From NCBI GenBank assembly GCA_963752075.1, contig CAVVWO010000007.1, positions 137,984 through 201,983 of the forward strand: a stretch of DNA of 64,000 nt. The letters run 5' to 3'. Below are positions 2 through 59,040 of this stretch, piece after piece; within the stretch, counting starts at the first letter, position 1, and each line of letters begins with the position of its first letter. The stretch comes from an uncultured Acidimicrobiia bacterium (GTDB lineage: Bacteria; Actinomycetota; Acidimicrobiia; Spongiisociales; JAENVV01). Below the pieces are notes generated by a model, which did not search any database, was not told the origin of the DNA, and saw only the letters and a program-made list of their open reading frames with translations. The position numbers were made by a program, and so were the translations under genes.

Positions 2-958
2 CCGGCAGCACTGCCGGTCAACGTAACTGTTGACGACGCAAGGCCGGAGGTTTCGGCGCAGCTCGAGATCATCCCGACGCCGGTCACCGGAACCATCTCA
101 GTGGTGACCGGGACGACGGATAAACCGAGTATCGAGCCGTTGCCGGGACTCGATATCCTCTACGACCCAACCCCCGCTAACCCGGACGACGAGACCCTCA
201 CGTTGGGTACCACTGATGCTGTCGGCGGGTTCGCGATCGAGGTACCTGCGACGCCAGGGATCCACTCGCTCACCCTCGACGGAGAGTTCCTGGTGCCCGC
301 CATCGAGCTGGCGATCGAGCCCGGAACCTCGATCGACGCGGAAGAAACAACGTTGATTCGGCTCTTCACGGTGACGGGATCGCTCGTCGATCAGTTTCGG
401 CGGGCCCTGGTTGATGCTCTCGACACATTCAATCCACCCCTCTCAGGTGATGTCACGGTGACCATCACCCAGTTCATGCCTGCAGATAACCTATTCTCGA
501 TCGACACCACCGACCCGGACTACCAATTCAGCTTTCCGATCGATGAGGAGCTATCCCTGCCGGGCCTACCAGGACCGGCGAAATACCGGTTCAGGGTGAC
601 TTTGCCGGCTACGAGTTCCCAGTTGACGCGCACTGTTACCACCGATGAGATCGACGTGCCTACCAACACGAAGACCGGAGATATCGAATTCAAGTTTGCT
701 TCGGGAGTGCTGTGGGGGACTTTGACCGCACAAGGTGCGCCGCTCGCCAACACCGTCGTGGACCTCAGCGAGGTGCCGGCCAGCGGAAACATGAGCGTTG
801 TCGAGAGCGCGAAAACCGATCTGTCCGGTCAGGTCGTGTTTGGACCGCTGGCCACGCCGGCAACCGATTTCCGTGTGATCGTGCCGACCACGGCGGTGAC
901 CTGCACCCCCGACATCGACGTCACATCCTCGTTCTACTTCAGTCTGACGTGTGACTAG
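2..958 (+). CDS. 3' part of a large secreted/surface protein with CarboxypepD_reg-like beta-sandwich repeats (5' end outside window)
   Basis: The frame is open from the first bases of the window to TAG at 956-958. The C-terminal segment GVLWGTLTAQGAPLANTVVDLSEV...AKTDLSGQVVFGPL resembles carboxypeptidase-regulatory-like domains, and the T/P/D-rich composition is typical of surface proteins. Confidence 0.45.
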   Translation, partial: PAALPVNVTVDDARPEVSAQLEIIPTPVTGTISVVTGTTDKPSIEPLPGLDILYDPTPANPDDETLTLGTTDAVGGFAIEVPATPGIHSLTLDGEFLVPAIELAIEPGTSIDAEETTLIRLFTVTGSLVDQFRRALVDALDTFNPPLSGDVTVTITQFMPADNLFSIDTTDPDYQFSFPIDEELSLPGLPGPAKYRFRVTLPATSSQLTRTVTTDEIDVPTNTKTGDIEFKFASGVLWGTLTAQGAPLANTVVDLSEVPASGNMSVVESAKTDLSGQVVFGPLATPATDFRVIVPTTAVTCTPDIDVTSSFYFSLTCD

Positions 959-1224: not shown

Positions 1225-1692
1225 TCATCGGGACATGAGGAGCACCACGACCAACACGATCACCAGCAGCACGACGGCCATGGTGAGACCGATGACCCAA
1301 CCCGTCAGATCTCGTGGCATTTCGTCGTCGAGTTCCTCGTCGAATATCGGGGTGGAGCCGTCAGAGCTCTCATCGGTCGAAGTCGGTGGGTCCGGTGGCG
1401 GATTGTGTAGGTTCTTTCCGCATCGCAAGCAGAGGATGGCCTTTTCCCCGTCTGGATTCAGTTCGTGGCAGAACCAGCATTCCAGGGCGTTCAAGTCCGT
1501 CCGTCCGGCGGCGCCCGGTGATCTGCGGTCGGATCCGAAGCCGGCGTCGATGCCAATCATGGCGCGAGCCGGCGACTCTTCCGCAACAAAGAACATCGGG
1601 TAGTCGCAAACGGGACAATACGAGGTGACGTGGGGAGACAACTCGACGAACTCCGTGCGTGTCTTGCATCGAGGACATTGCAGTTCAGGCAT
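1225..1692 (-). CDS. Tail-anchored double zinc-ribbon protein, last gene of the CIS structural operon
   Basis: ATG at 1692 overlaps the upstream stop by 8 nt (ATGCCTGA). There are two Cys pairs sets (CPRC...CPVC and CWFC...CLRC), an acidic linker and a C-terminal hydrophobic helix WVIGLTMAVVLLVIVLVVVLL. The longer 254-aa ORF call is an N-terminal extension overlapping the upstream gene. Confidence 0.6.
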   Translation of the reverse strand: MPELQCPRCKTRTEFVELSPHVTSYCPVCDYPMFFVAEESPARAMIGIDAGFGSDRRSPGAAGRTDLNALECWFCHELNPDGEKAILCLRCGKNLHNPPPDPPTSTDESSDGSTPIFDEELDDEMPRDLTGWVIGLTMAVVLLVIVLVVVLLMSR

Positions 1693-2476
1693 GAGTGACC
1701 TCGGCGGATGAGGATCTGGCTTCGTCTCCGATGATGAAGCGGTAGGGGAGCCAGGCGGGCAGAGCCGACTCGACCAGAGCGCTGAGCCGAGATTTGGGGA
1801 CGCCTCCGAGCGTCTGCAGTGTGATCGTCGCCACCGCTGGTCGCAACGGCTCGTTCGGCCCCTCGGCGGCTCTCTCCGCATTGAGGTCAGGCCCGCGCTC
1901 CACTCCTCCTGGTTCGGCCACTTGGCATGAGCCGCCAGTTGCGGCTGCCAGCAGCGCCTCCAACTCGTGGACCGTGCCGCGCGCTCCAAAATTCCGCATG
2001 GCGGTCACCGCCAGTGCCCGGCACCTGCGGTCGGGTAGCGCTCCGTCGATCGTCAGTCCTATCCATCCGGCCATCCAACGAGAGATCTCTGGCCCCGCTA
2101 CGGATGGATCGAACATCCTGGGGAATTCGTCGGCGAAGTCGTACAGATGGGTTCCGATGTCTTCGAAACCGCGGACGAATGCCACCAGAAGCTCATCCTT
2201 AGCGAGGATGTTCGGGAGACGATCGACATATAGAGAGCGTGGGTGCTGCGCCTCCAACTCGACACGCGCCCCGATCGCGACCCACTTTCCCGGCTCTCGG
2301 GATCGAATCCAATAGCGGCGAATCTCTACATCGGCGGCCGGTACTTGAGCGACAACAAGCGCTTGCCCAGACCTGTCGCCACGTATTACGGGCCGGTATC
2401 CCTCCAATTCGAGCGTCTTGCGCGCATCGGTCGCGCGCATACCGATCACGTTGGGCACGTGTACGACCAGTGTCAT
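1685..2476 (-). CDS. Baseplate protein, phage tail protein I-like (Afp12-like) with N-terminal PASTA-like module
   Basis: The N-terminus VPNVIGMRATDARKTLELEGYRPVI...VVAQVPAADVEI...GARVELEA fits the PASTA consensus. It is followed by a TIGR02242/gpI-like region LYVDRLPNILAKDELLVAFVRGFEDIGTHLYDFADEFPRMFDP...RWMAGWIGL. An ATGA overlap joins it to the Baseplate_J gene at 2473-2476. Confidence 0.65.
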   Translation of the reverse strand: MTLVVHVPNVIGMRATDARKTLELEGYRPVIRGDRSGQALVVAQVPAADVEIRRYWIRSREPGKWVAIGARVELEAQHPRSLYVDRLPNILAKDELLVAFVRGFEDIGTHLYDFADEFPRMFDPSVAGPEISRWMAGWIGLTIDGALPDRRCRALAVTAMRNFGARGTVHELEALLAAATGGSCQVAEPGGVERGPDLNAERAAEGPNEPLRPAVATITLQTLGGVPKSRLSALVESALPAWLPYRFIIGDEARSSSAEVTHA

Positions 2477-4443
2477 TCCACAACCACCGAGTGTTTGAAC
2501 CCGAGGAAGAGATGGTCCTCCTCCAGCTTGAATCCGGCTTGGGGCTCGGCGGTCTCTTGCGGCTTGGCCTCTGATTCAGCTGCGACTTCTATCGGGAGGC
2601 GTCTCTCCCTTTTCAAGTCAGCTCCGAAGAGAACTACCTCGGGGACGGCGGCCACGCCATCGATCGTGGTCAACAGATGGCGGACATTCCTCTCGGAGAG
2701 AGTCCACCCGAAGGGAACGCCATCGCCGTCAGGTCCACCGAACGTGGGATGGGTGTAGCGGTAGAGGGCTCTCAAGCACCCCTGTTCGACCGTTTTGCGG
2801 TCGGCATTGGGAAGCCCGATCACCCGCGCCGCGATACTGACCCCCTGATAGAACGGAGTGCCGACCGAGACGCGGGTACCGACCAGCCTGCGCTCCTCCA
2901 AATAGTCGTGGACCGTCTGGTACACGTCGTCGATCACGAAGTCGTCGATGACATGGTTGATCGGGTCCCCATCCACGGTGGGTACGATCAACACCCTGAC
3001 GACGGGGAAACCGTCACGGCGCTCGATGCAATGAGCTCTCGCTACCCCGGGAGACGCCTCTTCGGCCAGGCGCGCATAGTCCCCGGCGGTCACCGCCCGC
3101 CGGCCAGATCGGAGGGTCATCGGCGCTCGGAGTCGCACGGCCTCGTCGGTTTCGGTGTCGTTGCCGCCGACTGCGGGGTCGAGGTTGGTCACGCCTTGCA
3201 CGAACGGCACACTGGTGCGCATCACTCGCAGCGTCTTGGCGCCAACGTTGCCCAGGATGCCGCCGCCGACCCGATAGGCGGTCACCATGATCTCGGCGCC
3301 TTTGTCTGGGATGTCACCCCGCTGACTCGTTCCGCCGTCTGGATGCCGAACCTGGGGCCCGAACTCGATCTCACCGGATGCGGCATGCCAGACCACGTGC
3401 TTGTCGTTCTCGTCCGAGTACCCGAAGTGCTCTTTCTCTTCCCAGTCTTCGGAGGAGTCTGCCGTCACCACCTGGATCGTCTCGCCGGACCAGCGAGGAG
3501 TCAGCACCGGCGCACGACTCAAGCTGAAGCGCTGACCCGGTGTCCCGTCGCTCACACCGAGGACTTCCGTTTCGACCGATTCGCCATGGAACGCTGACAC
3601 CAAGCCACCGATGGTCTCAGGTATGACGGTGTGAATTTCCGGTGATCGGCTGTAGTTGTTGGCAGTGTCTGCGTCGAACGTGAGTCGCAGCCAGTGCGCC
3701 TCGACCGTACCCAATGTCAGTGGAATATGTCCCGCCGGAAGTGCAAGCTCGATCTCGCCGGTGCGATTCAGTCCGCCGGTCCCGTCTGAGATCAATCTGG
3801 CAGGTGCCCACCCGTCGCGGGTGTAGATGTGCCACGAGACGGGTGGCTCGTCCGGCTTGATCCCCCGCCCCAGGGTTTCCGCAGCGATGCGGAGCCTGAT
3901 CACGTGACGTGACAAGGGCTGGGCGAAACCCAGGTACATGGCAGCGTCCGTTTCGAGCGGATCGAAACACTTGATGGTTGTGTCAGCGAACTGAAGGCGG
4001 TCCCATTGGTTGGTGTATGCCCCATGCGCTGGTTGTGTCAAGCATGCCGCCAGCTCCGGAGGACGAAGCACCATTCGCTCGTTGGTCATGAAGACAATCT
4101 GTCCCGCGTCACCCGTCTGTGTGGCGACTTCGATTCGCTCTTCGAGGGTTGCCGCCTCTGCTTGCGGCGTGATGCGGAAGAAGAGATCGGTGTGGGCGGG
4201 GATCAACGGGTTCGGCTCGATTCCCACCAGGTTCAGGAACACCGAATAGAGGCGGTCCGGCACCCGGTTGAGCCGGTAGAGGGTCTGCTCGGTCATGTAG
4301 GCGAAAAGCTCCACGAGCGTAACACCGGGGTCGGAGAGGTTGTGGTTGGTCCACTCGGGGCAATGTAAGGCGATACGCCGCTTGGTCTCATCGACGATGT
4401 TCTGGAAGGTTCGATCGTCCAGATTTGGTACTCGCAGCGTCAT
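2473..4443 (-). CDS. Baseplate_J-like protein (T4 gp6 / P2 gpJ / Afp11-like)
   Basis: MTLRVPNLDDRTFQNIVDETKRRIALHCPEWTNHNLSDPGVTLVELFAYM is a typical eCIS Baseplate_J N-terminus. ATG 4443 forms ATGA with the gp25 stop. The first 51 codons of the 707-aa ORF call overlap gp25 and are rejected. Confidence 0.85.
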   Translation of the reverse strand: MTLRVPNLDDRTFQNIVDETKRRIALHCPEWTNHNLSDPGVTLVELFAYMTEQTLYRLNRVPDRLYSVFLNLVGIEPNPLIPAHTDLFFRITPQAEAATLEERIEVATQTGDAGQIVFMTNERMVLRPPELAACLTQPAHGAYTNQWDRLQFADTTIKCFDPLETDAAMYLGFAQPLSRHVIRLRIAAETLGRGIKPDEPPVSWHIYTRDGWAPARLISDGTGGLNRTGEIELALPAGHIPLTLGTVEAHWLRLTFDADTANNYSRSPEIHTVIPETIGGLVSAFHGESVETEVLGVSDGTPGQRFSLSRAPVLTPRWSGETIQVVTADSSEDWEEKEHFGYSDENDKHVVWHAASGEIEFGPQVRHPDGGTSQRGDIPDKGAEIMVTAYRVGGGILGNVGAKTLRVMRTSVPFVQGVTNLDPAVGGNDTETDEAVRLRAPMTLRSGRRAVTAGDYARLAEEASPGVARAHCIERRDGFPVVRVLIVPTVDGDPINHVIDDFVIDDVYQTVHDYLEERRLVGTRVSVGTPFYQGVSIAARVIGLPNADRKTVEQGCLRALYRYTHPTFGGPDGDGVPFGWTLSERNVRHLLTTIDGVAAVPEVVLFGADLKRERRLPIEVAAESEAKPQETAEPQAGFKLEEDHLFLGFKHSVVVE

Positions 4444-4856
4444 GTGCCCTCCTCTGGAATCACATAGAACGGAAAGACCAGATTCCTGGTATCGTTGGTG
4501 GTGCGGACTCGGAAGCCGACTTCGATTCGCACGGTGCTCGGGGAATCGGGGTCGACCGTGGCTTTCACGTCCTCTACCGCAATGCGTGGCTCCCACTCCG
4601 ACAGAGCGCTACGGACAGCGAAGCTCATGTCGGCAAGCGTCGCTGTATTGAGTGACTCGTAGAGCAAATCCCAGATTCGGCATCCGAATGTCGGTCGCAT
4701 GGGGCGCTCTCCCGGAGCGGTCATGATGATGATGCGGATCGACTCAGCGATGTCGGCATCACCGGTGGCAAGCGCAACACGGCCGTGAGCGTCGATCCGC
4801 ATGGGGAAGGCGAGGCCACGTCCGATGAAGTCGATGTTCTCAGGTCGGCTGGTCAA
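4440..4856 (-). CDS. GPW/gp25-like baseplate wedge protein (Afp9-like)
   Basis: GRGLAFPMRIDAHGRVA...IAESIRIIIMTAPGERPMRPTFGCRIWDLLYE matches the gp25 family signature. ATGA overlaps occur at both ends. Confidence 0.9.
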   Translation of the reverse strand: MTSRPENIDFIGRGLAFPMRIDAHGRVALATGDADIAESIRIIIMTAPGERPMRPTFGCRIWDLLYESLNTATLADMSFAVRSALSEWEPRIAVEDVKATVDPDSPSTVRIEVGFRVRTTNDTRNLVFPFYVIPEEGT

Positions 4857-6655
4857 TTGATCTGCACCATCCCTCCTTTGAGTTCGGCCGTAGCGCTTCC
4901 CTCGAGGGAGAGGGTTCCGGAGGCTTTGGCTTCAACGGACGCCCCTTTGATCCCAACCTTGGAGGTCCCGTCGGCAGAAACCTCGTTCCCCGTGATCTTC
5001 ACGTTCGAAGAGGCCTCGATGTTGACGTTTGCGCCTTCCAGCGACAGGTCACCCGTCGCCTTCAGGCTGATGTCGCCCTCCGCGGTGATGGCGATGTCTT
5101 GGGGAGTCTTGATAGACACTCCACCATCCTCGGTGATCTCGATGGTTCCCTTTTCGTCCGCGAGCGCGATCATGATGGTGTTGGTGGTGCCGTTCTCGTC
5201 GTCCTTCACTTCGATCCTGTGTCCCTTGCGGGTGTAGAGCGCACGCACCGCCACCTGGTCGTTGACCACCGAGGTGGCGTTGTCGAGCGGCGGAGCCTTG
5301 GTAGTGCTCCAGAGGCCACCGAGAATCACGGGCCGGAGAGGGTCGCCCTGCTCGAACCCCACGATTACCTCGTCGTCGATTTCCGGGAGTAGCTGCAATC
5401 CGTATCCCGATCCGGCGCCCGGCGCGGCGAGTCGCGCCCACGCCGACTCGTCGCTGTCAGATAGGGTCGGCAGCTTCACCTTGATACGAGCTGCCTGGTC
5501 TTCGTCGTTGATGGCCGTCACCGTCCCGACCATGAGTCCGGTGGCCGCCGACGGCGGGGGTGGCGACCCGAGCAAGGCGACGAGGTCCGAGGGGTTGATC
5601 CCCTCGCACACGAACCTCGTGGTGTATCCACCGTCACCGCCAACGATATGTTCGGTTTTGGTCACGGTGAAGTCGCCTGAGAGTTGCTTTCCCACCTTGG
5701 CGAGGGTGACACCTGCACCTGGTGCGAGAGACGGGTCTCCGTCTGCCGTGCCTTTGACGGTTACTTGAGAAGACATGGCGCGCCGTCCCAGCGACTTGGC
5801 CAGGGCGTCGGCGGCAACGCTGTCCGCCAGGGTGTGCGATTCGAATCGAGCTGATGGGCCGAAGTCGGCGGCTTTCGCTGCGACGTCAGTCGCTGCTGGA
5901 GCATCGCCGGCGAGCCCATTGGTCCGGTTGGCGCTCGCAGTCCAAGATCCGATGATGGCGGACTGACTATCCGGGTCCCACCCCCGCACGGCCACGTCGG
6001 AGACAGAGTCGCTGCTCGAAAGCCGGACCCGGAACGAAAGGAGATTCTCGCCCCAGGTCAACGCGGTCGACGTCGAGGGGACCGCCACGTCTTTGAAGAA
6101 CAGCTTCGATCCGCTGATCCACCATCGGTATCCGAGGAGGCGAGCCCGCTGACTGAGGAATTCGAAGTCCGATGAAGACTGGAGGACGTAGGAGTGCGTC
6201 GTGGGCGTGGTGTCGACGTCCGGAGTGAGTGAGTTTTCATTGGCGATCTTCGAGACGATGTCACTATCGGTCATCTCCGTAAAGGTCCGCACCTGAACCT
6301 TGCGTGCGAGGCGGTGTCCCTTGCCGAGCGCTGTGATCACGAGCTCGTGCGCCTCACCGCCTCCTGGCTCAATCGAGAGTCCGGTGATCTCGCCCGAGAA
6401 CACATCATGTTCGTTGGCCTCGTCGTCGGTGAGTGCGATCGACAGTTCCGAACTGATGGCGAGGTCGCCACTGTCCATGTGTTCGAACTCTGGGTCGTTG
6501 AAACGCATCTTGGCGACGTCGGGCAGATGAATCGACTGTTCGATGCGCAGGTCGACCATGTCCGTCAGGAGTTCGAGGGACAGCGCCTGGCCGTCGGTCT
6601 TGACCGTGCGAATGTCTACATGGGTGGTGTGATGGCTAAACACGTGAGACCTCAC
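4853..6655 (-). CDS. VgrG / gpD-like spike protein (Afp8-like)
   Basis: It has a gpD-like N-terminal half, the OB-fold motif IDDEVIVGFEQGDPLRPVILGGLWS and C-terminal beta-helix repeats (ISLKATGDLSLEGANVNIEASSNVKITG...). The start is GTG at 6655, or alternatively GTG at 6643. Confidence 0.85.
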   Translation of the reverse strand: MRSHVFSHHTTHVDIRTVKTDGQALSLELLTDMVDLRIEQSIHLPDVAKMRFNDPEFEHMDSGDLAISSELSIALTDDEANEHDVFSGEITGLSIEPGGGEAHELVITALGKGHRLARKVQVRTFTEMTDSDIVSKIANENSLTPDVDTTPTTHSYVLQSSSDFEFLSQRARLLGYRWWISGSKLFFKDVAVPSTSTALTWGENLLSFRVRLSSSDSVSDVAVRGWDPDSQSAIIGSWTASANRTNGLAGDAPAATDVAAKAADFGPSARFESHTLADSVAADALAKSLGRRAMSSQVTVKGTADGDPSLAPGAGVTLAKVGKQLSGDFTVTKTEHIVGGDGGYTTRFVCEGINPSDLVALLGSPPPPSAATGLMVGTVTAINDEDQAARIKVKLPTLSDSDESAWARLAAPGAGSGYGLQLLPEIDDEVIVGFEQGDPLRPVILGGLWSTTKAPPLDNATSVVNDQVAVRALYTRKGHRIEVKDDENGTTNTIMIALADEKGTIEITEDGGVSIKTPQDIAITAEGDISLKATGDLSLEGANVNIEASSNVKITGNEVSADGTSKVGIKGASVEAKASGTLSLEGSATAELKGGMVQIN

Positions 6656-7310
6656 CGTTCAGAGGCACCTTGATGGCGGTACCGGGTGGGATCTGGAGCG
6701 GGTCGTCGATGCGGTTGGCTTCGGCGATGGTCCTCCACTGGGTTGGGTCGCCGTAGTACTTGGTGGCCAGGGAGTCGAGACTCTCGCCCGTCTGGAAGAC
6801 GTGGACCCGGTGAGGATTGGGGGTACCGGAAGTGGGATTCTGGGGGAGCCAGGTGTCATCGTCCTCGGCCTGCTCGAGGCCCACTTTTGCCTTGGCCCGG
6901 AGCGGGACTCCATCGGCAGAGAAGTAGGTGTACGTGATCGAGACCTGCTTCACATAGGCTTCGAATGACTGAAACTCGCCCCAAGTGAATCGGACGGTGG
7001 GCGGCCGATGCACGGCAGAGCCTGGAGTTGGCAGGTTGTCATTGACCTCGGTGAGCCTCAGCAGCTGATCGGTGAATGTCGTGACGGTCTTTCCGGTATC
7101 GGTGGTGTCGAAGATGAGTTCGAGGTCGAGCGTCGATGATCCGCCTTTGGTGAACGCCATCTTGGGGGCGTTCACATACTTCGTGTCGGCGGCAACCCAG
7201 CTGACGGATTTCGCAAGACTGAATTGCTCGGGGTTGAACAGGCATTTGATGGTGTCTTTCGGCGCGATCTTCGAATTGGGTTCCAGAACGAGGGCCGCTT
7301 TCGTCACCAT
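6636..7310 (-). CDS. LysM-domain tube-initiator / baseplate hub protein (Afp7-like)
   Basis: A tube-like N-domain (CLFNPEQFSLAKSVSW...LDLELIFDT) is followed by a C-terminal LysM (HVFQTGESLDSLATKYYGDPTQWRTIAEANRIDDPLQIPPGTAIKVP). The junction with the upstream ORF is TGATG. Confidence 0.8.
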   Translation of the reverse strand: MVTKAALVLEPNSKIAPKDTIKCLFNPEQFSLAKSVSWVAADTKYVNAPKMAFTKGGSSTLDLELIFDTTDTGKTVTTFTDQLLRLTEVNDNLPTPGSAVHRPPTVRFTWGEFQSFEAYVKQVSITYTYFSADGVPLRAKAKVGLEQAEDDDTWLPQNPTSGTPNPHRVHVFQTGESLDSLATKYYGDPTQWRTIAEANRIDDPLQIPPGTAIKVPLNGEVSRV

Positions 7311-23379: not shown

Positions 23380-24114
23380 ATGAAGGGTCTAACGATCGAA
23401 GCAACCGCCAAGAGAAGGATCAGTAGGAGAGGGAGGCGGGACCCTTCCGACTCGCGGCGGTACTTCCCCTCGGAGGAGCGCGAACAAGCCTCGTACCCGA
23501 TATCCCACCAGTACTCGGCTGGGAACCGTGCAGTCGCCAGGCTTGTGAGCCGGTCGCAGGTCAGCGTCCGGCGGAGCTATGACACGGTGCCCATGCTCGA
23601 GGCCGGACTACAGATGGATATCAATAACAAAGACGCACTTCCGGTCCCTTACATGACGTCAATCGAAAGAGCGGCATACACGGTCTCAGTGCACCGCGGG
23701 CTTCTGTTTAGAGGAGGTCGACCGCTCGACACGAGTGACGGTGGGGGGACTGAGACGTACATCTTCGTGATGGACGCTGATGGTCAGATCTACGCCGCCG
23801 CAGAAGACGAGGTGCATCATCACTCGTCCTTCATGGGCGGAAGCCCAGTCGCTGCTGCGGGAGCGATGAAGGTCTACAACGGTCAACTAGCACGCATCAA
23901 TAACCAAAGTGGACACTATCGCCCGACCGGCCACCACCAAGCGCAGCTCATCGGAGAGCTCGAGAAGCGTCGAGCCAACCTCTCGATGCTCGATCCGAGC
24001 GTCTTGGGAGGGGCTCCGGCAACAAGGTTGTCACCTGGCGAATTCAACGCGGCTTGGGCTTTCGAGTCCGGGAACTTCGCCAAGAAGGATGACTGGAAGT
24101 CGGTGGATCTGTAG
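23380..24114 (+). CDS. Hypothetical protein, candidate CIS cargo/toxin (family not recognised)
   Basis: It is transcribed divergently from the LuxR gene and is the last ORF before tRNA-Lys. The basic N-terminus carries YSAGNRAVARLV, shared with the DUF4157 protein and the kinase-like effector. The conserved-looking core is YIFVMDADGQIYAAAEDEVHHHSSFMGGSPVAAAGAMKVYNGQLARINNQSGHYRP. Confidence 0.5.
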   Translation: MKGLTIEATAKRRISRRGRRDPSDSRRYFPSEEREQASYPISHQYSAGNRAVARLVSRSQVSVRRSYDTVPMLEAGLQMDINNKDALPVPYMTSIERAAYTVSVHRGLLFRGGRPLDTSDGGGTETYIFVMDADGQIYAAAEDEVHHHSSFMGGSPVAAAGAMKVYNGQLARINNQSGHYRPTGHHQAQLIGELEKRRANLSMLDPSVLGGAPATRLSPGEFNAAWAFESGNFAKKDDWKSVDL

Positions 24115-24146
24115 AGCGCAGCCGATCGTGTCGTGCCATGTGGATC

Positions 24147-24222
24147 TGGTGGGCCCCGTGGGAATCGAACCCACAACCAACGGGTTAAAAGCCCGGTGCT
24201 CTGCCAATTGAGCTAGAGGCCC
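24147..24222 (-). tRNA. tRNA-Lys (anticodon UUU), CCA encoded
   Basis: The reverse complement GGGCCTCTAGCTCAATTGGCAGAGCACCGGGCTTTTAACCCGTTGGTTGTGGGTTCGATTCCCACGGGGCCCACCA folds as a 76-nt cloverleaf. Its anticodon loop is CTTTTAA and its T-arm is GGGTTCGATTCCC. Confidence 0.9.
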
Positions 24223-24349: not shown

Positions 24350-26152
24350 GTGATCCGGTTTGGGATCTCTGCCCTGCCCCCGGACGGCGACGACGCTGCC
24401 TTCCTCGATGGCGTCGCCGAAGCTGGGTACGGAGCGGTGGAACTCAGCTTCACCAAGGGATTCCCTTGGAAGGAGAAGCGGTGCCGTCAGTTCGGTGAGC
24501 TGGCAGCCGAACGAGACATAGCCCTTTCCGCCCACGCCCCGTTCTTCGCCGTGCTCACTGTCCAAAATGAGGACAAGGCCAAGCAGTGCCGAGCAGCGCT
24601 CGAACACACGCTGAAGCTGGGTCATGAGCTGGGAGCGAAGATCATCGTCGCCCACCTCGGCAGCACTCATGGCGAGGAGGCCGAGGTGCTCCTCACCCGG
24701 ATTCGAATCCATCTCGACTGGATCGAATCGAAGGTCCGTCACCTTGGCGTAGGCCTTGGTCTCGAGACCGGGGGCAAGGCCAGCCAGTTCGGAAGCCTTG
24801 GTGACATTGCCTTGCTGGCCTCGGAATACACCTTCGTCCGCCCGGTCGTCGATTGGGCACACGTTCACGCCATGTCGGGCGGTGCGCTCACCACCCGTGA
24901 AGCATTCGAGGCCGTGATCGCTTTCATCCGTGACCAGTTTCCCGGCTGGATGGTCGACCCTCTCCACTGCCAGTTCACCGACAATCTCTTCGGTGACGCC
25001 GGCGAGATCAAGCACGTTCCGTACGGTGAGGGGAGCCTGCGAGTCGGCCCTCTCGTCGAGGCGGCCCGAGCCAGCGGTCTCCGAATGACCATGATCTCCG
25101 AGGCGCGACGCCCCGAGAGCGACGCGGCGATCTTCGCAGAGGTCCGCCAGACCCTGGCAGCGATCGAAGAGCCGTCGACCGGGTCGACCCGGTCTCTCGC
25201 GTCGGCCGATATTCGTTTTCCGGACCCGGTCGAGGTGGTGGAGGATGGCAAGCACGCCACTCCGGTGGGCATGGAACGCACCCTCCGCCTCTCCAATATC
25301 GACAAACCATTCTTTCCTGACGGGCTCACGAAGGGCGACCTCATTCAGTACTACGCGTCGGTGGCTCCGGTGCTGCTACCCCACCTGGCGGGACGTGGCA
25401 TCGTCATGTCGCGGTACCCCGAGGGTGCCGAGGGGGAATTCTTCTACGAAAAACAGGCACCGGGGCACCAGCCGGACTGGATGCCTCTCGCCTCGATCCA
25501 TTCCGGTCACCGGGGCAAGCCGATCGACTTCGTCATGGCGACGAGCCGCGAGGGCTTGATGTGGCTGGCCAACATGGGCTGCATCGAGATCCACCCGTGG
25601 TTGTCGCAGATGCAGCACATCGAAAATCCTTCATTCGCCATCTTCGACCTCGACCCGGCCGACGGCGCCACATGGGCCCAGGTGGTCGACGTGGCCAACC
25701 TGATCAAGGTGGCGCTCGGTGGACTCGGTCTGCTGGGGTATCCGAAGACGTCAGGCGCCACGGGCATGCACATCTATGTGCCACTCGATCCGGTAGCCGA
25801 ATACTCAACGGTGCGCGGGTTCGTCGAAGCAGTCGGACGGCTTCTCCTCAAGGCAAACCCGGACAACATCACCATGGAGTGGGACATCCCGAAGCGGACC
25901 GGGAGGGTGTTCATCGACGTCAACCAGAACGTTGGCGGCAAGACGATTGCCTCTGTGTACTCGGTCCGCCCGCGGCCCGGAGCGCCCGTATCGACGCCGC
26001 TGTTGTGGGAGGAGGTCGGGATTGTCCAACCGGGCGACTTCACGATCGAGACGCTGTGGCCGCGACTCCAGAAGTACGGCGACCTCTTCGCCCCCGTCCT
26101 GGAAGGCGGCCAAACGCTCGCCGCGGCCCGATCGGCCCTCGGCCTGGAGTGA
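24350..26152 (+). CDS. Fusion protein: Endo IV-like (AP_endonuc_2 / xylose isomerase-like TIM barrel) N-domain plus LigD polymerase/primase (NHEJ Pol) C-domain
   Basis: The N-terminal half has metal-ligand-like motifs: LSAHAPFF, IIVAHLG, GLGLETGG and VVDWAHVHAM. The C-terminal half, LRLSNIDKPFFPDGLTKGDLIQYY...MSRYPEG...FYEKQ...IEIHPW...AIFDLDP...GYPKTSGATGMHIYVPL...RVFIDVNQN...TIASVYSVRPRPGAPVSTPL, is the LigD Pol domain pattern. Confidence 0.8.
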   Translation: MIRFGISALPPDGDDAAFLDGVAEAGYGAVELSFTKGFPWKEKRCRQFGELAAERDIALSAHAPFFAVLTVQNEDKAKQCRAALEHTLKLGHELGAKIIVAHLGSTHGEEAEVLLTRIRIHLDWIESKVRHLGVGLGLETGGKASQFGSLGDIALLASEYTFVRPVVDWAHVHAMSGGALTTREAFEAVIAFIRDQFPGWMVDPLHCQFTDNLFGDAGEIKHVPYGEGSLRVGPLVEAARASGLRMTMISEARRPESDAAIFAEVRQTLAAIEEPSTGSTRSLASADIRFPDPVEVVEDGKHATPVGMERTLRLSNIDKPFFPDGLTKGDLIQYYASVAPVLLPHLAGRGIVMSRYPEGAEGEFFYEKQAPGHQPDWMPLASIHSGHRGKPIDFVMATSREGLMWLANMGCIEIHPWLSQMQHIENPSFAIFDLDPADGATWAQVVDVANLIKVALGGLGLLGYPKTSGATGMHIYVPLDPVAEYSTVRGFVEAVGRLLLKANPDNITMEWDIPKRTGRVFIDVNQNVGGKTIASVYSVRPRPGAPVSTPLLWEEVGIVQPGDFTIETLWPRLQKYGDLFAPVLEGGQTLAAARSALGLE

Positions 26153-55931: not shown

Positions 55932-56863
55932 CGGGGCCCCAGATGCACCATGGCTGCCCGCTCCGCCGAAGGCTCCACGATCACTTGACCGGGAATGGCC
56001 CTGGCCAAGCGCCGACCGGCCTCGAGCGACGATCCAACCCAGCCGGAATGCTGTCCGGCCTCTTCCATGGTGTACAGCTGGATGGGCATCCCGGATCGAA
56101 GCCCCGCTTGAACATATCCCGCCGCCAGGGAGGCGTGCCGCTCGGCGACCTCGGCGTTGCCGCGTAGGTCCACGGAGACGATCAGAGCCGGGCTCTGAGG
56201 GGATTCGAGTTCTTTCACCACCAACATATCTCGCCGGGCGGTGCTCGCCCAATGGATCATTCGCAGCGGGTCTCCGTCGCGATACTCCCGCACCGTGCGC
56301 ACGGTTTCGCCTTCCGTGTGTCGCCCTCCGACCGACGTTTCTCCTTCCCCGGACGAGGTGGCCGCCTTGGGCAGGTCGACCCGGACGGCGCGGGGTGCCA
56401 CGTCGATGGGCCGGGGAAGACTGACATTCAGGATTCGGCTCGCCCACACCAATCCCAACCCTGCAGCCGTTTCGATCTGAATCGTCACCGAGGAGATGAC
56501 GCCTCGTCGGAGCGGCTGAAGGGAGATGCCTCCTGTGGTCGGGGCAACCAAGCCGAAGACGTCCGACTCGGGGTCGAGCAGTCGGACTCGGTACCCGGCC
56601 GGAGGCCCGTCCACCGTCAGTTCCAGCTCCATTCGGCGTCCCACCATCGCGTCCGACGGACCGGCCAGTCTCACGGCGACACGCCTGACACCCAGAACGG
56701 GTCCGAGAGTTCCCCACATCAGCGTGGCCGCTCCCAGGGAGACCATGATCGTGAGCCAGCCCGACCCTGTGGTTCGTGAGGATGCCAGAAAGGAGAGGCT
56801 GAGAAGCGCCACCACGGCAGCTCCTCGCGTTGGCCGGAGGCGCACTCCTCGAAGACGGATCAT
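55928..56863 (-). CDS. DUF58 protein
   Basis: VREYRDGDPLRMIHWASTARRDMLVVKELE is the DUF58 signature. The gene sits between MoxR and the transglutaminase gene, as is typical. Confidence 0.85.
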   Translation of the reverse strand: MIRLRGVRLRPTRGAAVVALLSLSFLASSRTTGSGWLTIMVSLGAATLMWGTLGPVLGVRRVAVRLAGPSDAMVGRRMELELTVDGPPAGYRVRLLDPESDVFGLVAPTTGGISLQPLRRGVISSVTIQIETAAGLGLVWASRILNVSLPRPIDVAPRAVRVDLPKAATSSGEGETSVGGRHTEGETVRTVREYRDGDPLRMIHWASTARRDMLVVKELESPQSPALIVSVDLRGNAEVAERHASLAAGYVQAGLRSGMPIQLYTMEEAGQHSGWVGSSLEAGRRLARAIPGQVIVEPSAERAAMVHLGPR

Positions 56864-56866
56864 CGT

Positions 56867-58789: not shown

Positions 58790-58823
58790 CTTCGGAGTAC
58801 ACTCTGGCTACAACCAAGGCCGA

Positions 58824-59040
58824 TAACCCGTACGGGAGAGTTCGAGTGGCCCAGCTGCTCGGCGCCGAAGGAGCAACCGCCCCGGAATCTCTCAGGCCTC
58901 CAGGACCGTTCGGGAAGGCATGCTGGAAAGTGGGTCGCCGCCATGAAGATGTGGAGGCGCCCTCACCGACGGGGACAAGATTGTCCGGTGTACTCCGTAC
59001 AATCGAAACTCTCAGGTTCGCAGACAGTCGGGGTCCTCGC
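58824..59040 (+). promoter_or_regulatory. Tandem glycine riboswitch upstream of gcvT
   Basis: Aptamer 1 reads CGGGAGAG...GGCGCCGAAGGAGCAACCGCCCCGGAATCTCTCAGGCCTCCAGGACCG. Aptamer 2 reads CTGGAAAG...CTCACCGACGGGGACAAG...AAACTCTCAGGTTCGCAGACAG. Both match the GGAGAG / ACCGAAGGGGCAA / CTCAGGC..GGAC consensus blocks. Boundaries are approximate. Confidence 0.75.

What the first reader, a model, noticed from the sequence alone, without database searches (positions are those of the whole stretch)
1225..24222. Afp/PVC-like contractile injection system island next to tRNA-Lys, with no tail-fibre gene
Seen in sequence:
- The minus strand from 22.0 to 1.2 kb encodes, in order: a LuxR regulator, an Afp15-like AAA+ ATPase, a DUF4255 cap, a channel-like membrane protein, a kinase-like protein, a REC-like gene, the sheath, a tube, a gpE-like chaperone, a second tube, a long low-complexity ORF, a LysM initiator, a VgrG-like spike, gp25, Baseplate_J, a gpI-like protein and a zinc-ribbon membrane protein.
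- The plus strand carries the DUF4280 (PAAR-like) and DUF4157 genes.
- Most junctions are ATGA, GTGA or TGATG overlaps.
- No capsid, portal, terminase, integrase, lysis cassette, split TssB/C sheath, TssJLM or ClpV genes are present. The locus is therefore neither a prophage nor a T6SS.
- No Afp13-like fibre ORF is present.
- The island ends about 30 bp from tRNA-Lys(UUU).

Established knowledge: DUF4255, a dedicated AAA+ ATPase and DUF4157 are hallmarks of eCIS loci. Fibre-less actinobacterial CIS have been reported to act from the cytoplasm.

Inference: this is a fibre-less actinobacterial CIS with non-canonical accessory genes, described in separate findings.
Basis: partly seen in the sequence, partly recalled or inferred. 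Interest (0 to 1): 0.7.

Follow-up and report, generated by a model that had tools for sequence, protein, structure and literature searches.

The report
Streptomyces-type contractile injection system cluster
This is a chromosomal gene cluster for a phage-tail-like injection machine of the fibre-less kind known from Streptomyces, found here in an uncultured Acidimicrobiia-like actinobacterium; it is a new member of a known family, and its sheath gene is broken in the deposited sequence, most likely by assembly errors.

Summary
The contractile injection system (CIS) core is real. Profile searches recover the LuxR regulators, AAA+ ATPase, DUF4255 cap, two tubes, LysM tube initiator, VgrG spike, gp25, Baseplate_J, a small Cis12-like protein, DUF4280 and DUF4157. 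There are no head, terminase, integrase or T6SS genes. The closest solved structures are all the Streptomyces coelicolor cytoplasmic CIS (sheath E 2.8e-145, Cis11 E 4.9e-129), so "Afp/PVC-like" is too loose.

- **Sheath not intact.** The sheath and the small gene upstream are not intact ORFs. About 15 window-unique 1-2-base indels lie between 13262 and 11370. The corrected protein keeps 89/90 invariant residues. An independent Logan contig, identical in the adjacent genes, has an intact frame at the sites it covers. I read this as a consensus artefact (about 0.75), not decay.
- **tRNA-Lys adjacency.** It looks incidental: no integrase, no repeat, and no tRNA in the retrieved stretches of three related loci.
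- **Left boundary.** The linked gene set probably extends left of 1225.

No fibre gene is found. The fibre/CisA position holds a tail-anchored zinc-ribbon membrane protein. A GLIC-fold channel gene overlaps the cap gene. The locus is a new member of a known kind, of moderate interest.

The parts
2..958 (+). 3' part of a convergent gene for a large CarboxypepD_reg-like beta-sandwich repeat protein; its 5' end lies beyond the window. It is probably linked to the CIS locus.
   Evidence: Weak Pfam CarboxypepD_reg hit. 50% identity (E 3e-67) to residues 675-882 of the 913-aa convergent gene that follows the CIS baseplate genes in relative L018. 33% identity (E 7e-36) to the ectodomain of P0369.
1225..1692 (-). 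Tail-anchored double zinc-ribbon membrane protein (155 aa, single C-terminal TM helix). It occupies the position where eCIS loci carry fibres and Streptomyces carries cisA.
   Evidence: One TM helix at residues 133-151 with CxxC pairs. A family of 193 representatives, mostly 140-250 aa and ending just after the TM helix; the L001/L018 homologue P0369 has an added ectodomain. The start overlaps the Cis12-like stop by 8 nt.
1685..2476 (-). Cis12-like baseplate wedge protein (PASTA N-terminus plus a P2 gpI/TIGR02242-type domain).
   Evidence: PASTA 5.9e-07. TIGR02242 2.3e-10 and CIS12_fam 2.3e-05. PDB 9gtp_E (S. coelicolor CIS baseplate chain, 190 aa) E 2.1e-15.
2473..4443 (-). Cis11 (Baseplate_J) wedge protein. 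The ORF is open up to 4596, but the likely start is the ATG at 4443, which overlaps the gp25 stop.
   Evidence: Baseplate_J 7.8e-19. phrog_6 baseplate wedge 1.1e-22. PDB 9gtp_1K E 4.9e-129 over the full length. Homologues align from 4443.
4440..4856 (-). Cis9 (gp25-like) baseplate protein.
   Evidence: GPW_gp25 1.4e-25.
4853..6655 (-). Cis8 VgrG-like spike.
   Evidence: Phage_base_V 2.7e-26 and Phage_GPD 3.9e-10. 62% identity to the L001 orthologue.
6636..7310 (-). Cis7 tube initiator with a C-terminal LysM domain.
   Evidence: CIS_tube 8.7e-29 and LysM 4.6e-07. The Logan contig L010 is 100% identical over 7606-5168.
7310..9919 (-). 869-aa Arg/Ser/Ala/Pro-rich low-complexity protein in the tape-measure position.
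   Evidence: No family hit. The N-terminal ~75 aa and C-terminal ~50 aa match the equivalent ORFs of L001/L002 in one frame. L002 has the same composition and the same C-terminal ...RRGGRxQG motif.
9891..10397 (-). Cis1b tube protein.
   Evidence: Phage_T4_gp19 1.9e-29.
10560..10940 (-). 126-aa tail-assembly-chaperone-like protein between the two tube genes.
   Evidence: phrog_508 tail assembly chaperone 2.4e-09. Conserved at 74-80% identity in L001, L002 and L011.
10928..11359 (-). Cis1a tube protein. The native start, about 20 nt upstream, is put out of frame by a 1-nt deletion near 11370.
   Evidence: Phage_T4_gp19 2e-32. Alignment to Logan contig L009.
11420..13017 (-). Cis2 sheath gene, interrupted in this sequence by 11 single-base frameshifts (about 12430, 12405, 12225, 12075, 11891, 11872, 11761, 11698, 11646, 11576, 11483). 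The first 585 nt are clean.
   Evidence: Three-frame translation and frameshift-aware alignment. The corrected 522-aa product is 70% identical over 100% of its length to intact 524-aa sheaths. It matches the CIS-Sc sheath in PDB 8bky/9gtp at E 2.8e-145. Conservation test. L009 comparison.
13040..13373 (-). Conserved 110-aa gene immediately upstream of the sheath (function unknown; the 'REC-like' label is unsupported), interrupted by 2-4 single-base indels.
   Evidence: Present and intact in L001, L002 and L011. Frameshift-aware alignment. No Pfam hit and no similarity to the LuxR N-terminus.
13588..14292 (+). DUF4157/eCIS_core (HExxH) protein with an N-terminal AGNRAL motif.
   Evidence: eCIS_core 1.9e-31. 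Motif. 72-82% identity to the L011/L001 orthologues.
14289..15515 (+). 408-aa protein of unknown function, translationally coupled (4-nt overlap) to the DUF4157 gene; candidate cargo or partner.
   Evidence: No family or PDB hit. No homologue in L001, L002 or L011. Lower G+C region.
15571..17307 (-). 578-aa candidate cargo protein with an N-terminal AGNTAL motif and a DRHxxN...ID motif pair resembling a PI3/4-kinase catalytic loop.
   Evidence: Motif. PI3_PI4_kinase E 0.27, which is not significant. No PDB, NCBIfam or PHROG hit.
17551..18750 (-). 399-aa membrane protein with a pentameric ligand-gated ion channel (GLIC-like) fold. Its start overlaps the cap gene stop (ATGA).
   Evidence: Five hydrophobic segments. 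AlphaFold2 model with pLDDT 71: N-terminal TM helix, beta-sandwich, four TM helices. Foldseek top 50 hits are all GLIC/nAChR/GABA-A/GlyR, E ~1e-10, prob 1.0. Same position in L011, and a remnant in L001. The family also occurs outside CIS loci.
18747..19514 (-). Cis16 cap (DUF4255/Pvc16_N).
   Evidence: Pvc16_N 2.9e-27. PDB 9gts_0A E 1.8e-30.
19486..21408 (-). Cis15 AAA+ ATPase.
   Evidence: AAA 1.3e-27. 71-79% identity to the L011/L002 orthologues.
21413..22015 (-). LuxR-family (GerE HTH) regulator 1.
   Evidence: GerE 5e-14. The arrangement GerE - DUF4280 (opposite strand) - GerE - AAA - cap is shared with L002 and L011.
22237..22626 (+). DUF4280 (PAAR-like) protein. The ORF is open from 22054, but homologues are 129 aa.
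   Evidence: DUF4280 1.1e-29. L002 and L014 orthologues.
22634..23179 (-). LuxR-family (GerE HTH) regulator 2.
   Evidence: GerE 5.7e-09. 68% identity to the L011 orthologue.
23380..24114 (+). 244-aa protein of unknown function with an N-terminal AGNRAV motif; candidate cargo.
   Evidence: Motif. No family hit. Logan contig L014 matches 21636-24202 with one mismatch.
24147..24222 (-). tRNA-Lys(UUU); a neighbour, not shown to be part of the system.
   Evidence: ARAGORN and Rfam. No repeat of it elsewhere in the window.

Best explanation
The locus is a chromosomal gene cluster for a Streptomyces-type (CIS-Sc-like) contractile injection system in an uncultured Acidimicrobiia-like actinobacterium.

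Shown:
- A complete structural set is present: Cis1a/1b tubes, Cis2 sheath, chaperone-like protein, disordered tape-measure-position protein, Cis7, Cis8, Cis9, Cis11, a small Cis12, Cis15 ATPase, Cis16 cap, a DUF4280 tip and a DUF4157 protein. Two LuxR-type regulators accompany it.
- In the deposited sequence the sheath gene and the small gene upstream carry about 15 one- or two-base indels.

Inferred:
- These indels are consensus errors in a roughly 1.9-kb patch where related strains were collapsed or poorly covered. The organism probably makes an intact sheath.
- By analogy with CIS-Sc, the particles assemble free in the cytoplasm, with no fibres and no release module.
- They are recruited to the cytoplasmic membrane by a small membrane adaptor encoded after the baseplate genes. 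Here that is a tail-anchored zinc-ribbon protein rather than CisA.
- They fire under stress and release cargo that kills or lyses the producer cell.
- The three ORFs carrying an N-terminal AGNxA(L/V) motif (the DUF4157 protein, the 578-aa protein and the 244-aa protein) are the best cargo candidates.
- The GLIC-fold channel, translationally coupled to the cap gene, may link a membrane or ionic signal to the system. That role is speculative.
For: **Core families.** Pfam, NCBIfam and PHROG hits from E 1e-19 to 1e-32.

**Lineage.** The best solved relatives of the sheath, Cis11, cap and Cis12 are all chains of the S. coelicolor/S. venezuelae CIS models: 8bky/9gtp at 2.8e-145, 9gtp_1K at 4.9e-129, 9gts_0A at 1.8e-30 and 9gtp_E at 2.1e-15. 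Afp/PVC/AlgoCIS sheaths score only about 1e-50. 9GTP and 9GTS are the CIS-Sc models.

**Synteny.** The locus is syntenic with three to four related loci from long metagenomic contigs.

**Indels as artefact.**
- All events are 1-2 nt. Eight of the eleven in the sheath are insertions, and there is no in-frame stop.
- The corrected protein keeps 89/90 invariant and 139/143 of the >=95%-conserved columns. Intact homologues keep 99.2% on average, with a 5th percentile of 97.1%.
- Identity to orthologues (73%) is in line with the intact neighbours (59-84%).
- The rest of the 64-kb window shows long intact ORFs.
- Logan contigs from run ERR12040029 match the window at 100% (2439 nt), at 99.96% (2567 nt) and at 100% over about 850 nt of tube/chaperone sequence.
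- Over the last ~370 nt of the sheath, however, the Logan contig is 88% identical, has mostly third-codon-position differences (22:8:6) and lacks all five indels.
- The same indels are absent from L001, L002 and L011.

**Fibre-less and membrane adaptor.**
- No fibre family hit in any ORF.
- The gene after Cis12 is a 155-aa tail-anchored zinc-ribbon protein.
- In Streptomyces that position holds CisA, a bitopic membrane protein required for firing (PMC12237407).

**Cargo motif.** It occurs only 3 times in the six-frame translation of the whole window. All three are near the N-termini of island ORFs, and similar motifs sit at the N-termini of giant ORFs beside eCIS ATPases in other phyla.
Against: - The frameshifted products are in the public record (the 251-aa truncated product is an exact match). 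No read-level data were available.
- The only independent sequence covering the patch is a different allele (88% identical) and covers just 5 of about 15 sites. No further Logan fragment was found. A real pseudogene in this strain is therefore not excluded.
- Four substitutions at highly conserved sheath positions (residues 209-262) put the corrected protein at the low end of the functional range.
- Cytoplasmic action is inferred only from homology and gene content.
- Fibre genes are now known in many actinobacterial eCIS with Tail_P2_I-type baseplates (PMC12923769). I could not test for their eBAP3 anchor domain.
- The zinc-ribbon protein was not compared with CisA by sequence, and its family may not be CIS-specific.
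- The channel family is widespread outside CIS loci.
Confidence: 0.72

Rival explanations
1. The sheath (and the small gene upstream) is a genuine pseudogene. This strain carries a defunct CIS locus whose other genes have not yet decayed, and the intact allele in the Logan contig belongs to a co-occurring sister strain.
For: - The frameshifts are in the deposited assembly.
- The window's patch is a distinct, real allele, not noise. It differs from L009 mainly at third codon positions, and its variants are shared with L002 at 21 of 36 sites.
- The corrected sheath sits at the low end of conservation (139/143).
- Not all indels lie in homopolymers.
Against: - About 15 indels with almost no accompanying substitution decay, no in-frame stop, and all of 1-2 nt. 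This is unlike neutral decay, where substitutions should outnumber indels several-fold and indel sizes vary.
- More than 20 kb of neighbouring CIS genes are intact.
- The flanks are 99.96-100% identical to Logan contigs while the patch alone is 12% divergent. That would require importing an already broken yet otherwise conserved allele.
Confidence: 0.2
2. It is an extracellular CIS (eCIS). Particles are released and bind other cells through a fibre or receptor-binding protein that current profiles do not recognise, for example the large beta-sandwich repeat protein encoded convergently at the left edge.
For: - DUF4157, the AAA+ ATPase and the DUF4255 cap are eCIS hallmarks.
- A Tail_P2_I-type small wedge protein is the adaptor proposed for eBAP3/eBAP5 fibres, which are common in Actinobacteriota (PMC12923769).
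- The left-edge ORF is a surface-type CarboxypepD_reg repeat protein whose adjacency is conserved in L018.
Against: - No ORF hits DUF6519 (eBAP5) or any fibre family.
- The gene directly after the wedge genes is a 155-aa tail-anchored membrane protein, not a fibre.
- In the relative, the same beta-sandwich module is fused behind a TM helix (P0369). That places it outside the membrane of the producer rather than on a cytoplasmic particle.
- No lysis cassette is present.
- The closest characterised system is cytoplasmic.
Confidence: 0.2
3. It is a mobile genomic island or degraded myovirus prophage integrated at tRNA-Lys.
For: - The last ORF ends 32 bp from tRNA-Lys.
- The 14-18 kb cargo region has slightly lower G+C, 0.58-0.60 against 0.62-0.66.
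Against: - No integrase, capsid, portal or terminase gene is present.
- No direct repeat of the tRNA longer than 15 nt occurs anywhere in the window.
- The retrieved stretches of L001, L002 and L011 hold no tRNA, and L002 and L011 have different neighbours at the regulator end.
- In relative L018 the baseplate end is followed by surface proteins and glutamate synthase, not phage genes.
- The right flank is housekeeping: LigD, rhodanese, 5'-3' exonuclease, NhaA.
Confidence: 0.04

Closest known systems
CIS-Sc / CIS-Sv, the cytoplasmic contractile injection systems of Streptomyces coelicolor and S. venezuelae (dbeCIS clade IId; PMC10066040, PMC12237407)
   Same: - The best PDB matches for the sheath, Cis11, cap and small Cis12 are CIS-Sc chains.
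- Two tube paralogues.
- A small SCO4243-like wedge protein instead of a large Afp12.
- No Afp13-type fibre and no typical Afp14 tape measure.
- A single-pass membrane protein encoded right after the baseplate genes.
- DUF4157 and an AAA+ ATPase are present.
   Different: - The host is an Acidimicrobiia-like MAG, not a streptomycete.
- The membrane protein after the baseplate genes is a 155-aa tail-anchored zinc-ribbon protein with no extracytoplasmic domain. CisA is about 468 aa, with a disordered N-terminus and a periplasmic-binding-protein-like C-terminal domain.
- A GLIC-fold channel gene is coupled to the cap gene.
- There is no homologue search evidence for the Sco4256-4258 type effectors.
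- The candidate cargo differs.
- The sheath is frameshifted in the record.
Afp (Serratia entomophila) and PVC (Photorhabdus) extracellular CIS
   Same: The same superfamily and the same core families: sheath, gp19 tubes, LysM tube initiator, VgrG, gp25, Baseplate_J, AAA+ ATPase and DUF4255 cap.
   Different: - They are much more distant (sheath about 1e-42 to 1e-50 against 1e-145 for CIS-Sc).
- Afp/PVC have three sheath paralogues, a large Afp12, Afp13 fibres and a helical tape measure, and they are released to act on eukaryotic cells.
Streptomyces davawensis CIS with the tapemeasure-related effector Tme (PMC11126660)
   Same: An actinobacterial CIS in which a very large, largely disordered protein encoded just upstream of the baseplate genes is loaded into the particle. 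DUF4157 marks the cargo.
   Different: Tme carries DUF4157, TM helices and a C-terminal nuclease. The 869-aa ORF here has none of these, and DUF4157 is a separate 234-aa protein.
Thylakoid-anchored CIS (tCIS) of Anabaena (PMC8894136)
   Same: An intracellular CIS that works from inside the producer and is tied to a membrane.
   Different: tCIS anchors through baseplate extensions or crown fibres (eBAP4). Its sheath is far more distant (7b5h, 4.6e-51).

Membership tests
Contractile injection system of the eCIS/Afp-PVC superfamily | Contractile sheath gene (Phage_sheath_1/1C) | tested here: met
   Met only after correcting 11 frameshifts. The corrected 522-aa product is 70% identical over 100% of its length to intact sheaths, E 1.2e-238. 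As deposited, only fragments remain (0.0013 on one fragment).
Contractile injection system of the eCIS/Afp-PVC superfamily | gp19-type tube, LysM tube initiator, VgrG spike, gp25 and Baseplate_J wedge | tested here: met
   Pfam E-values of 2e-32, 1.9e-29, 8.7e-29, 2.7e-26, 1.4e-25 and 7.8e-19.
Contractile injection system of the eCIS/Afp-PVC superfamily | eCIS-specific accessories: DUF4255/Pvc16_N cap, dedicated AAA+ ATPase, DUF4157 | tested here: met
   Pvc16_N 2.9e-27, AAA 1.3e-27, eCIS_core 1.9e-31.
Contractile injection system of the eCIS/Afp-PVC superfamily | Afp13-type tail fibre downstream of the baseplate genes | tested here: not met
   No fibre family (including DUF6519/eBAP5) hits any ORF. 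The downstream gene is a 155-aa tail-anchored protein. The eBAP3 anchor domain could not be searched.
Streptomyces-type cytoplasmic CIS (CIS-Sc, dbeCIS IId) | Structural proteins closest to CIS-Sc | tested here: met
   The top PDB hits for the sheath, Cis11, cap and Cis12 are CIS-Sc/Sv chains, by margins of tens of orders of magnitude or more in E-value for the sheath and Cis11, and as the only hits for the cap and Cis12. PDB identities are confirmed in PMC12237407.
Streptomyces-type cytoplasmic CIS (CIS-Sc, dbeCIS IId) | Placement in clade IId by sheath/VgrG phylogeny or the dbeCIS classifier | not tested
Streptomyces-type cytoplasmic CIS (CIS-Sc, dbeCIS IId) | CisA (SCO4242) homologue after the baseplate genes | tested here: inconclusive
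   A single-pass membrane protein is in that position, but its architecture differs (zinc ribbons, no C-terminal domain). No SCO4242 sequence was at hand for a direct comparison. Only 75 of 120 type IId genomes have CisA.
Streptomyces-type cytoplasmic CIS (CIS-Sc, dbeCIS IId) | Particles stay in the cytoplasm and mediate stress-induced death of the producer | not testable with these tools
   Needs cryo-ET and genetics.
Myovirus prophage | Capsid, portal, terminase, integrase and lysis genes | tested here: not met
   None found in the window. In relative L018, the baseplate end is followed by surface proteins and glutamate synthase. DNA left of the window itself was not available.
Type VI secretion system | Split TssB/TssC sheath, TssJLM membrane complex, ClpV | tested here: not met
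   A single 522-aa Cis2-type sheath. No such families appear among the ORFs scanned.
tRNA-targeted genomic island | Integrase plus a direct repeat of the tRNA 3' end at the far boundary | tested here: not met
   No integrase. The longest repeats of the tRNA region are 11-15 nt chance-level matches.
tRNA-targeted genomic island | Presence/absence polymorphism at the same tRNA in related genomes | tested here: inconclusive
   The retrieved stretches of L001, L002 and L011 hold no tRNA, and L002 and L011 have different flanks at the regulator end. No genome closer than about 70% protein identity was found.
Pentameric ligand-gated ion channel (for ORF 17551-18750) | Extracellular beta-sandwich followed by four TM helices | tested here: met
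   AlphaFold2 model and Foldseek: GLIC and eukaryotic Cys-loop receptors fill the top 50 hits, E ~1e-10, TM-score up to 0.69 on the target. No Pfam or PDB sequence-level hit. Pentamer formation and gating are not testable here.

The most novel reading that the evidence does not exclude
A lineage of Acidimicrobiia cytoplasmic CIS has replaced the Streptomyces adaptor CisA with a tail-anchored zinc-ribbon protein and has recruited a GLIC-type ligand-gated ion channel into the cap-ATPase operon. Particle docking or firing would then be gated by a membrane or ionic signal sensed by the channel. Cargo would be selected through a shared N-terminal AGNxA(L/V) motif.
Probability: 0.15. Interest if true: 0.7.

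Novelty: new member of a known kind. Interest (0 to 1): 0.4.

Why it matters
Fibre-less cytoplasmic CIS have so far been studied only in Streptomyces. This locus shows that the same machine, at 1e-129 to 1e-145 similarity in its main parts, occurs in uncultured Acidimicrobiia with a different small membrane protein in the CisA position and a ligand-gated-channel homologue in the operon. That gives comparative material for the open question of how a free cytoplasmic CIS finds the membrane and is triggered.

There is also a practical lesson. The key structural gene is broken in the public record by a local cluster of single-base indels, which an automated annotation would call a pseudogene. An independent assembly indicates an artefact, so gene-content surveys of CIS in long-read MAGs can under-count intact systems.

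Tried and rejected
**Searches that led nowhere**
- An exact look-up of the tube protein and of the ATPase for their source contig failed. The 203-kb source contig is known only from the cluster table.
- The genome-contig scan with the ATPase gave only distant eCIS loci in other phyla, at 52-54% identity.
- A second homology search with the middle of the sheath, meant to recover more Logan fragments of the intact allele, found none above 76% identity.
- An exact 30-mer from the patch had no match in JGI metagenomes.
- The Cis12-like protein found only 31-37%-identical loci there.
- PDB sequence searches for the three unassigned accessory proteins, and PADLOC, gave nothing useful.

**Ideas rejected**
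- *The 869-aa low-complexity ORF is a wrong-frame artefact.* Rejected because its two conserved ends are in one frame and L002 has the same composition.
- *The zinc-ribbon gene is a truncated or inverted version of the 531-aa P0369.* Rejected because most family members are about 150 aa. The left-edge ORF is the orthologue of a separate convergent 913-aa gene in L018.
- *The Logan contig L009 is a chimera with an L001-like genome.* Rejected because it is only 79% identical to L001.
- *The 110-aa gene is a receiver domain.* No support.

**Inconclusive**
- L001 against L018 as a direct demonstration of assembly indels: the two are 95-96% identical strains, not the same sequence.

Full report
**1. 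What is in the sequence**

On the minus strand, from high to low coordinates:

| Gene | Coordinates | Evidence |
|---|---|---|
| LuxR/GerE regulator 2 | 22634-23179 | GerE 5.7e-09 |
| LuxR/GerE regulator 1 | 21413-22015 | GerE 5e-14 |
| AAA+ ATPase | 19486-21408 | AAA 1.3e-27 |
| DUF4255/Pvc16_N cap | 18747-19514 | 2.9e-27 |
| Multi-pass membrane protein, 399 aa | 17551-18750 | no family hit |
| 578-aa protein | 15571-17307 | no family hit |
| Small conserved gene | 13373-13040 | intact in relatives |
| Sheath | 13017-11420 | see section 4 |
| Tube 1 | 10928-11359 | gp19 2e-32 |
| 126-aa protein | 10560-10940 | phrog_508, tail assembly chaperone, 2.4e-09 |
| Tube 2 | 9891-10397 | gp19 1.9e-29 |
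| 869-aa low-complexity ORF | 7310-9919 | no family hit |
| Tube initiator | 6636-7310 | CIS_tube 8.7e-29 + LysM |
| VgrG-type spike | 4853-6655 | Phage_base_V 2.7e-26 |
| gp25 | 4440-4856 | 1.4e-25 |
| Baseplate_J | 2473-4443 | 7.8e-19 |
| gpI/TIGR02242-type protein with a PASTA N-terminus | 1685-2476 | TIGR02242 2.3e-10 |
| Zinc-ribbon protein with one C-terminal TM helix | 1225-1692 | |

The plus strand carries four genes:
- DUF4280 (22237-22626, 1.1e-29).
- DUF4157/eCIS_core (13588-14292, 1.9e-31).
- A 408-aa ORF coupled to DUF4157 by a 4-nt overlap (14289-15515).
- A 244-aa ORF (23380-24114).

Overlapping stop/start junctions are common in the structural operon. tRNA-Lys(UUU) is at 24147-24222. 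No ORF of appreciable size is left unassigned that could be a capsid, portal, terminase, integrase, lysis or T6SS gene.

**2. Which kind of CIS**

A frameshift-corrected sheath finds intact 504-540-aa sheaths at up to 70% identity over its full length. The ones that carry names are from Acidimicrobiia/Acidimicrobiales MAGs.

Against all PDB sequences, the best matches are chains of the Streptomyces CIS models 8bky/9gtp and 8bl4/9gts:

| Window protein | Best PDB chain | E-value |
|---|---|---|
| Sheath | 8bky/9gtp | 2.8e-145 (488 bits, end to end) |
| Baseplate_J (Cis11) | 9gtp_1K | 4.9e-129 |
| Cap | 9gts_0A | 1.8e-30 |
| gpI-like protein | 9gtp_E | 2.1e-15 |

- 9GTP and 9GTS are the S. coelicolor CIS models (PMC12237407).
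- Afp, PVC, AlgoCIS and tCIS sheaths score only 1e-42 to 1e-51.
- The locus therefore belongs with the Streptomyces-type systems, which are cytoplasmic, fibre-less and mediate stress-induced death of the producer (PMC10066040, PMC12237407). 'Afp/PVC-like' is true only at superfamily level.
- I could not run a dbeCIS classification.

**3. Relatives and synteny**

- Four related loci were recovered from long metagenomic contigs: L001 and L018 (one lineage), L002 and L011.
- They share a common order: GerE, DUF4280 (opposite strand), GerE, AAA, cap, [variable genes], DUF4157 (opposite strand), 110-aa gene, sheath, tube, chaperone-like, tube, long disordered ORF, Cis7, VgrG, gp25, Cis11, small Cis12.
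- Protein identities to the window are 55-84%.
- The stretch between the cap and DUF4157 is variable. L002 has nothing there. L011 has the same membrane protein plus other genes. L001 has a remnant of it.
- The window's 578-aa and 408-aa ORFs have no counterpart in the relatives and sit in slightly lower G+C (0.58-0.60). This looks like a cargo or accessory module that turns over.

**4. The sheath problem**

*The frameshifts*
- Three-frame translation shows recognisable sheath peptide hopping among all frames.
- A frameshift-aware alignment to the closest intact homologue needs 11 single-base events (8 insertions, 3 deletions) between 12430 and 11483. There is no in-frame stop, and identity in matched codons is 73%.
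- The 110-aa gene just upstream needs 2-4 more.
- One further deletion near 11370 displaces the start of tube 1.
- The first 585 nt of the sheath, every other CIS gene and the remaining 40 kb of the window show no such damage.

*Decay or error?*
- The corrected protein keeps 89 of 90 invariant columns and 139 of 143 columns conserved at >=95% in 120 homologues. Intact homologues keep 99.2% on average, with a 5th percentile of 97.1%.
- Its identity to orthologues is in line with the intact neighbours.
- All events are 1-2 nt, and all are unique to the window when aligned with L001, L002, L011 and L009.
- Neutral decay that had accumulated about 15 indels should also show many more substitutions, stops and indels of mixed length.

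*Independent sequence*
- The window's proteins, including the 251-aa truncated sheath product, are exact matches to a 203,454-bp NCBI/ENA contig. The frameshifts are therefore in the public record.
- Logan contigs assembled independently from run ERR12040029 match the window perfectly over 2439 nt (L010), with one mismatch over 2567 nt (L014), and perfectly over the tube/chaperone part of L009.
- Within the last ~370 nt of the sheath, L009 is only 88% identical. The differences are mostly at third codon positions (22:8:6), and L009 lacks all five indels.
- The window thus carries a local ~1.9-kb patch that is both a different allele and indel-ridden, embedded in sequence otherwise identical to what the reads of that run support.

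*Reading*
- My best reading is a consensus artefact. The sheath is the most conserved gene of the locus, and several related populations occur in these samples. A collapsed or thinly covered stretch would give exactly this picture.
- I put this at about 0.75.
- A true pseudogene in this strain remains possible (about 0.2), because L009 covers only the 3' end and is a different allele. A further search for Logan fragments failed.

**5. Fibre, membrane partner and left boundary**

- No ORF hits a fibre family, including DUF6519 (the eBAP5 anchor).
- The eBAP3 anchor described for actinobacterial eCIS with Tail_P2_I-type baseplates could not be searched (PMC12923769).
- The gene directly after the wedge genes is where eCIS loci carry fibres and Streptomyces carries cisA. 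Here it encodes a 155-aa protein with two zinc-ribbon motifs, an acidic linker and a C-terminal TM helix.
- An exhaustive HMMER search finds 193 representatives, mostly 140-250 aa, that end just after the TM helix. This is therefore the normal architecture of a tail-anchored family.
- In L001/L018 the homologue (P0369, 531 aa) has an added CarboxypepD_reg-type ectodomain.
- The plus-strand ORF at the left edge (2-958) is 50% identical to the C-terminal part of a 913-aa convergent beta-sandwich repeat protein that follows the CIS genes in L018 (E 3e-67). It is more distantly related to the P0369 ectodomain.
- The linked gene set therefore probably continues left of 1225.
- In L018 the next genes are a Kelch-repeat protein and glutamate synthase, not phage head genes.

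**6. Other accessory genes**

*The 399-aa membrane protein*
- It overlaps the cap stop codon (ATGA) and has an N-terminal TM helix, a ~215-aa domain and four more TM helices.
- An AlphaFold2 model from a 30-sequence alignment (pLDDT 71) gives a beta-sandwich followed by a four-helix bundle.
- Foldseek returns only pentameric ligand-gated ion channels in the top 50 (GLIC, nAChR, GABA-A, GlyR; E ~1e-10, prob 1.0).
- The family is highly conserved and widespread in Proteobacteria and other phyla. A 75%-identical member sits in a non-CIS context. It is a recruited gene, not a CIS-specific one, and its role here is unknown.

*The kinase-like proteins*
- The 578-aa protein has a DRHxxN...ID motif pair, but only a non-significant PI3_PI4_kinase hit (E 0.27).
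- A 522-aa protein in the same region of L011 hits the actin-fragmin kinase catalytic domain at 6.8e-05.
- 'Kinase-like' is a lead, not a result.

*A shared N-terminal motif*
- The motif [AS]GNxA[LVIM] occurs only three times in the six-frame translation of all 64 kb.
- All three lie 30-50 residues into island ORFs: the DUF4157 protein, the 578-aa protein and the 244-aa protein.
- Similar motifs sit at the N-termini of giant ORFs next to eCIS ATPases in Acidobacteriota loci and in L001.
- eCIS cargo is known to need an N-terminal signal, though no conserved sequence has been reported (PMC11297309).
- I treat these three ORFs as the best cargo candidates.

**7. tRNA-Lys**

- The adjacency is real but carries no sign of site-specific integration.
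- There is no integrase and no repeat of the tRNA beyond 11-15-nt chance matches.
- No tRNA is present in the retrieved stretches of L001, L002 or L011; L002 and L011 have different flanking genes at the regulator end.
- The right flank is ordinary chromosome: a LigD-type fusion, DUF6183, rhodanese, 5'-3' exonuclease and NhaA.

**8. Verdict**

- The finding is a genuine CIS locus.
- It is a new member, in Acidimicrobiia, of the Streptomyces-type fibre-less CIS lineage, with lineage-specific accessories.
- Mechanism, by analogy only:
  - assembly in the cytoplasm;
  - docking at the membrane through the small tail-anchored protein;
  - stress-triggered firing with release of cargo.
- Interest is moderate. 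The kind is known, but the CisA-position substitute and the channel gene in the operon are worth a specialist's look.

Noticed in passing
window 17551-18750 (-): A 399-aa membrane protein whose start overlaps the cap gene stop has a GLIC/Cys-loop receptor fold (Foldseek E ~1e-10). It has no Pfam or PDB sequence hit. Its family is about 50% identical across phyla, with an invariant YPFDHK motif, and also occurs outside CIS loci.
   Followed up: yes
window 13675 (+), 17166 (-), 23518 (+); also L003 12261, L004 11601, L001 4451 and 7345: The motif [AS]GNxA[LVIM] occurs only three times in the six-frame translation of the whole window. All three are 30-50 residues into island ORFs (DUF4157 protein, 578-aa and 244-aa proteins). 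Related motifs sit near the N-termini of giant ORFs beside eCIS ATPases in Acidobacteriota loci. It may be a cargo-loading signature.
   Followed up: partly
window 2-958 (+); L018 11842-14583 (-): A large CarboxypepD_reg-type beta-sandwich repeat protein lies convergent to the end of the CIS operon in both the window and relative L018. In L018 the same kind of module is also fused behind the TM helix of the zinc-ribbon protein (P0369).
   Followed up: partly
window ~11370 (-): A 1-nt deletion relative to Logan contig L009 puts the native GTG start of tube 1 out of frame. The ORF now starts at an internal ATG created by nearby substitutions, seven residues shorter.
   Followed up: partly
window 14000-18000: The accessory/cargo stretch has lower G+C (0.58-0.60) than the rest of the locus and flanks (0.62-0.68). 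It has no counterpart in related loci, which suggests a replaceable module.
   Followed up: partly
L001 15829-16504 and 13060-14286 versus L018 4575-5249 and 1765-4575: In L001 the Cis7 gene is split in two and the long disordered ORF is cut to 408 aa. The 95-96%-identical locus L018, from another sample, has both intact. Broken CIS genes recur in these long-read assemblies.
   Followed up: partly
window 24350-26152 (+): Next to tRNA-Lys lies a 600-aa fusion of an AP-endonuclease-2/xylose-isomerase-like TIM barrel with a LigD primase-polymerase domain.
   Followed up: no
window 58823-58918 (+): A glycine riboswitch aptamer (64.5 bits) lies upstream of plus-strand ORFs that lead to the glycine dehydrogenase gene (gcvP, 59843-63013).
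   Followed up: no
window 48847-51594 (-) and 53745-57832 (-): A 915-aa SARP/BTAD-AAA-TPR regulator, and a MoxR-type AAA_3 ATPase next to a 990-aa TgpA-like transglutaminase. Together with fructose-bisphosphate aldolase and other housekeeping genes, this is ordinary actinobacterial chromosome.
   Followed up: no
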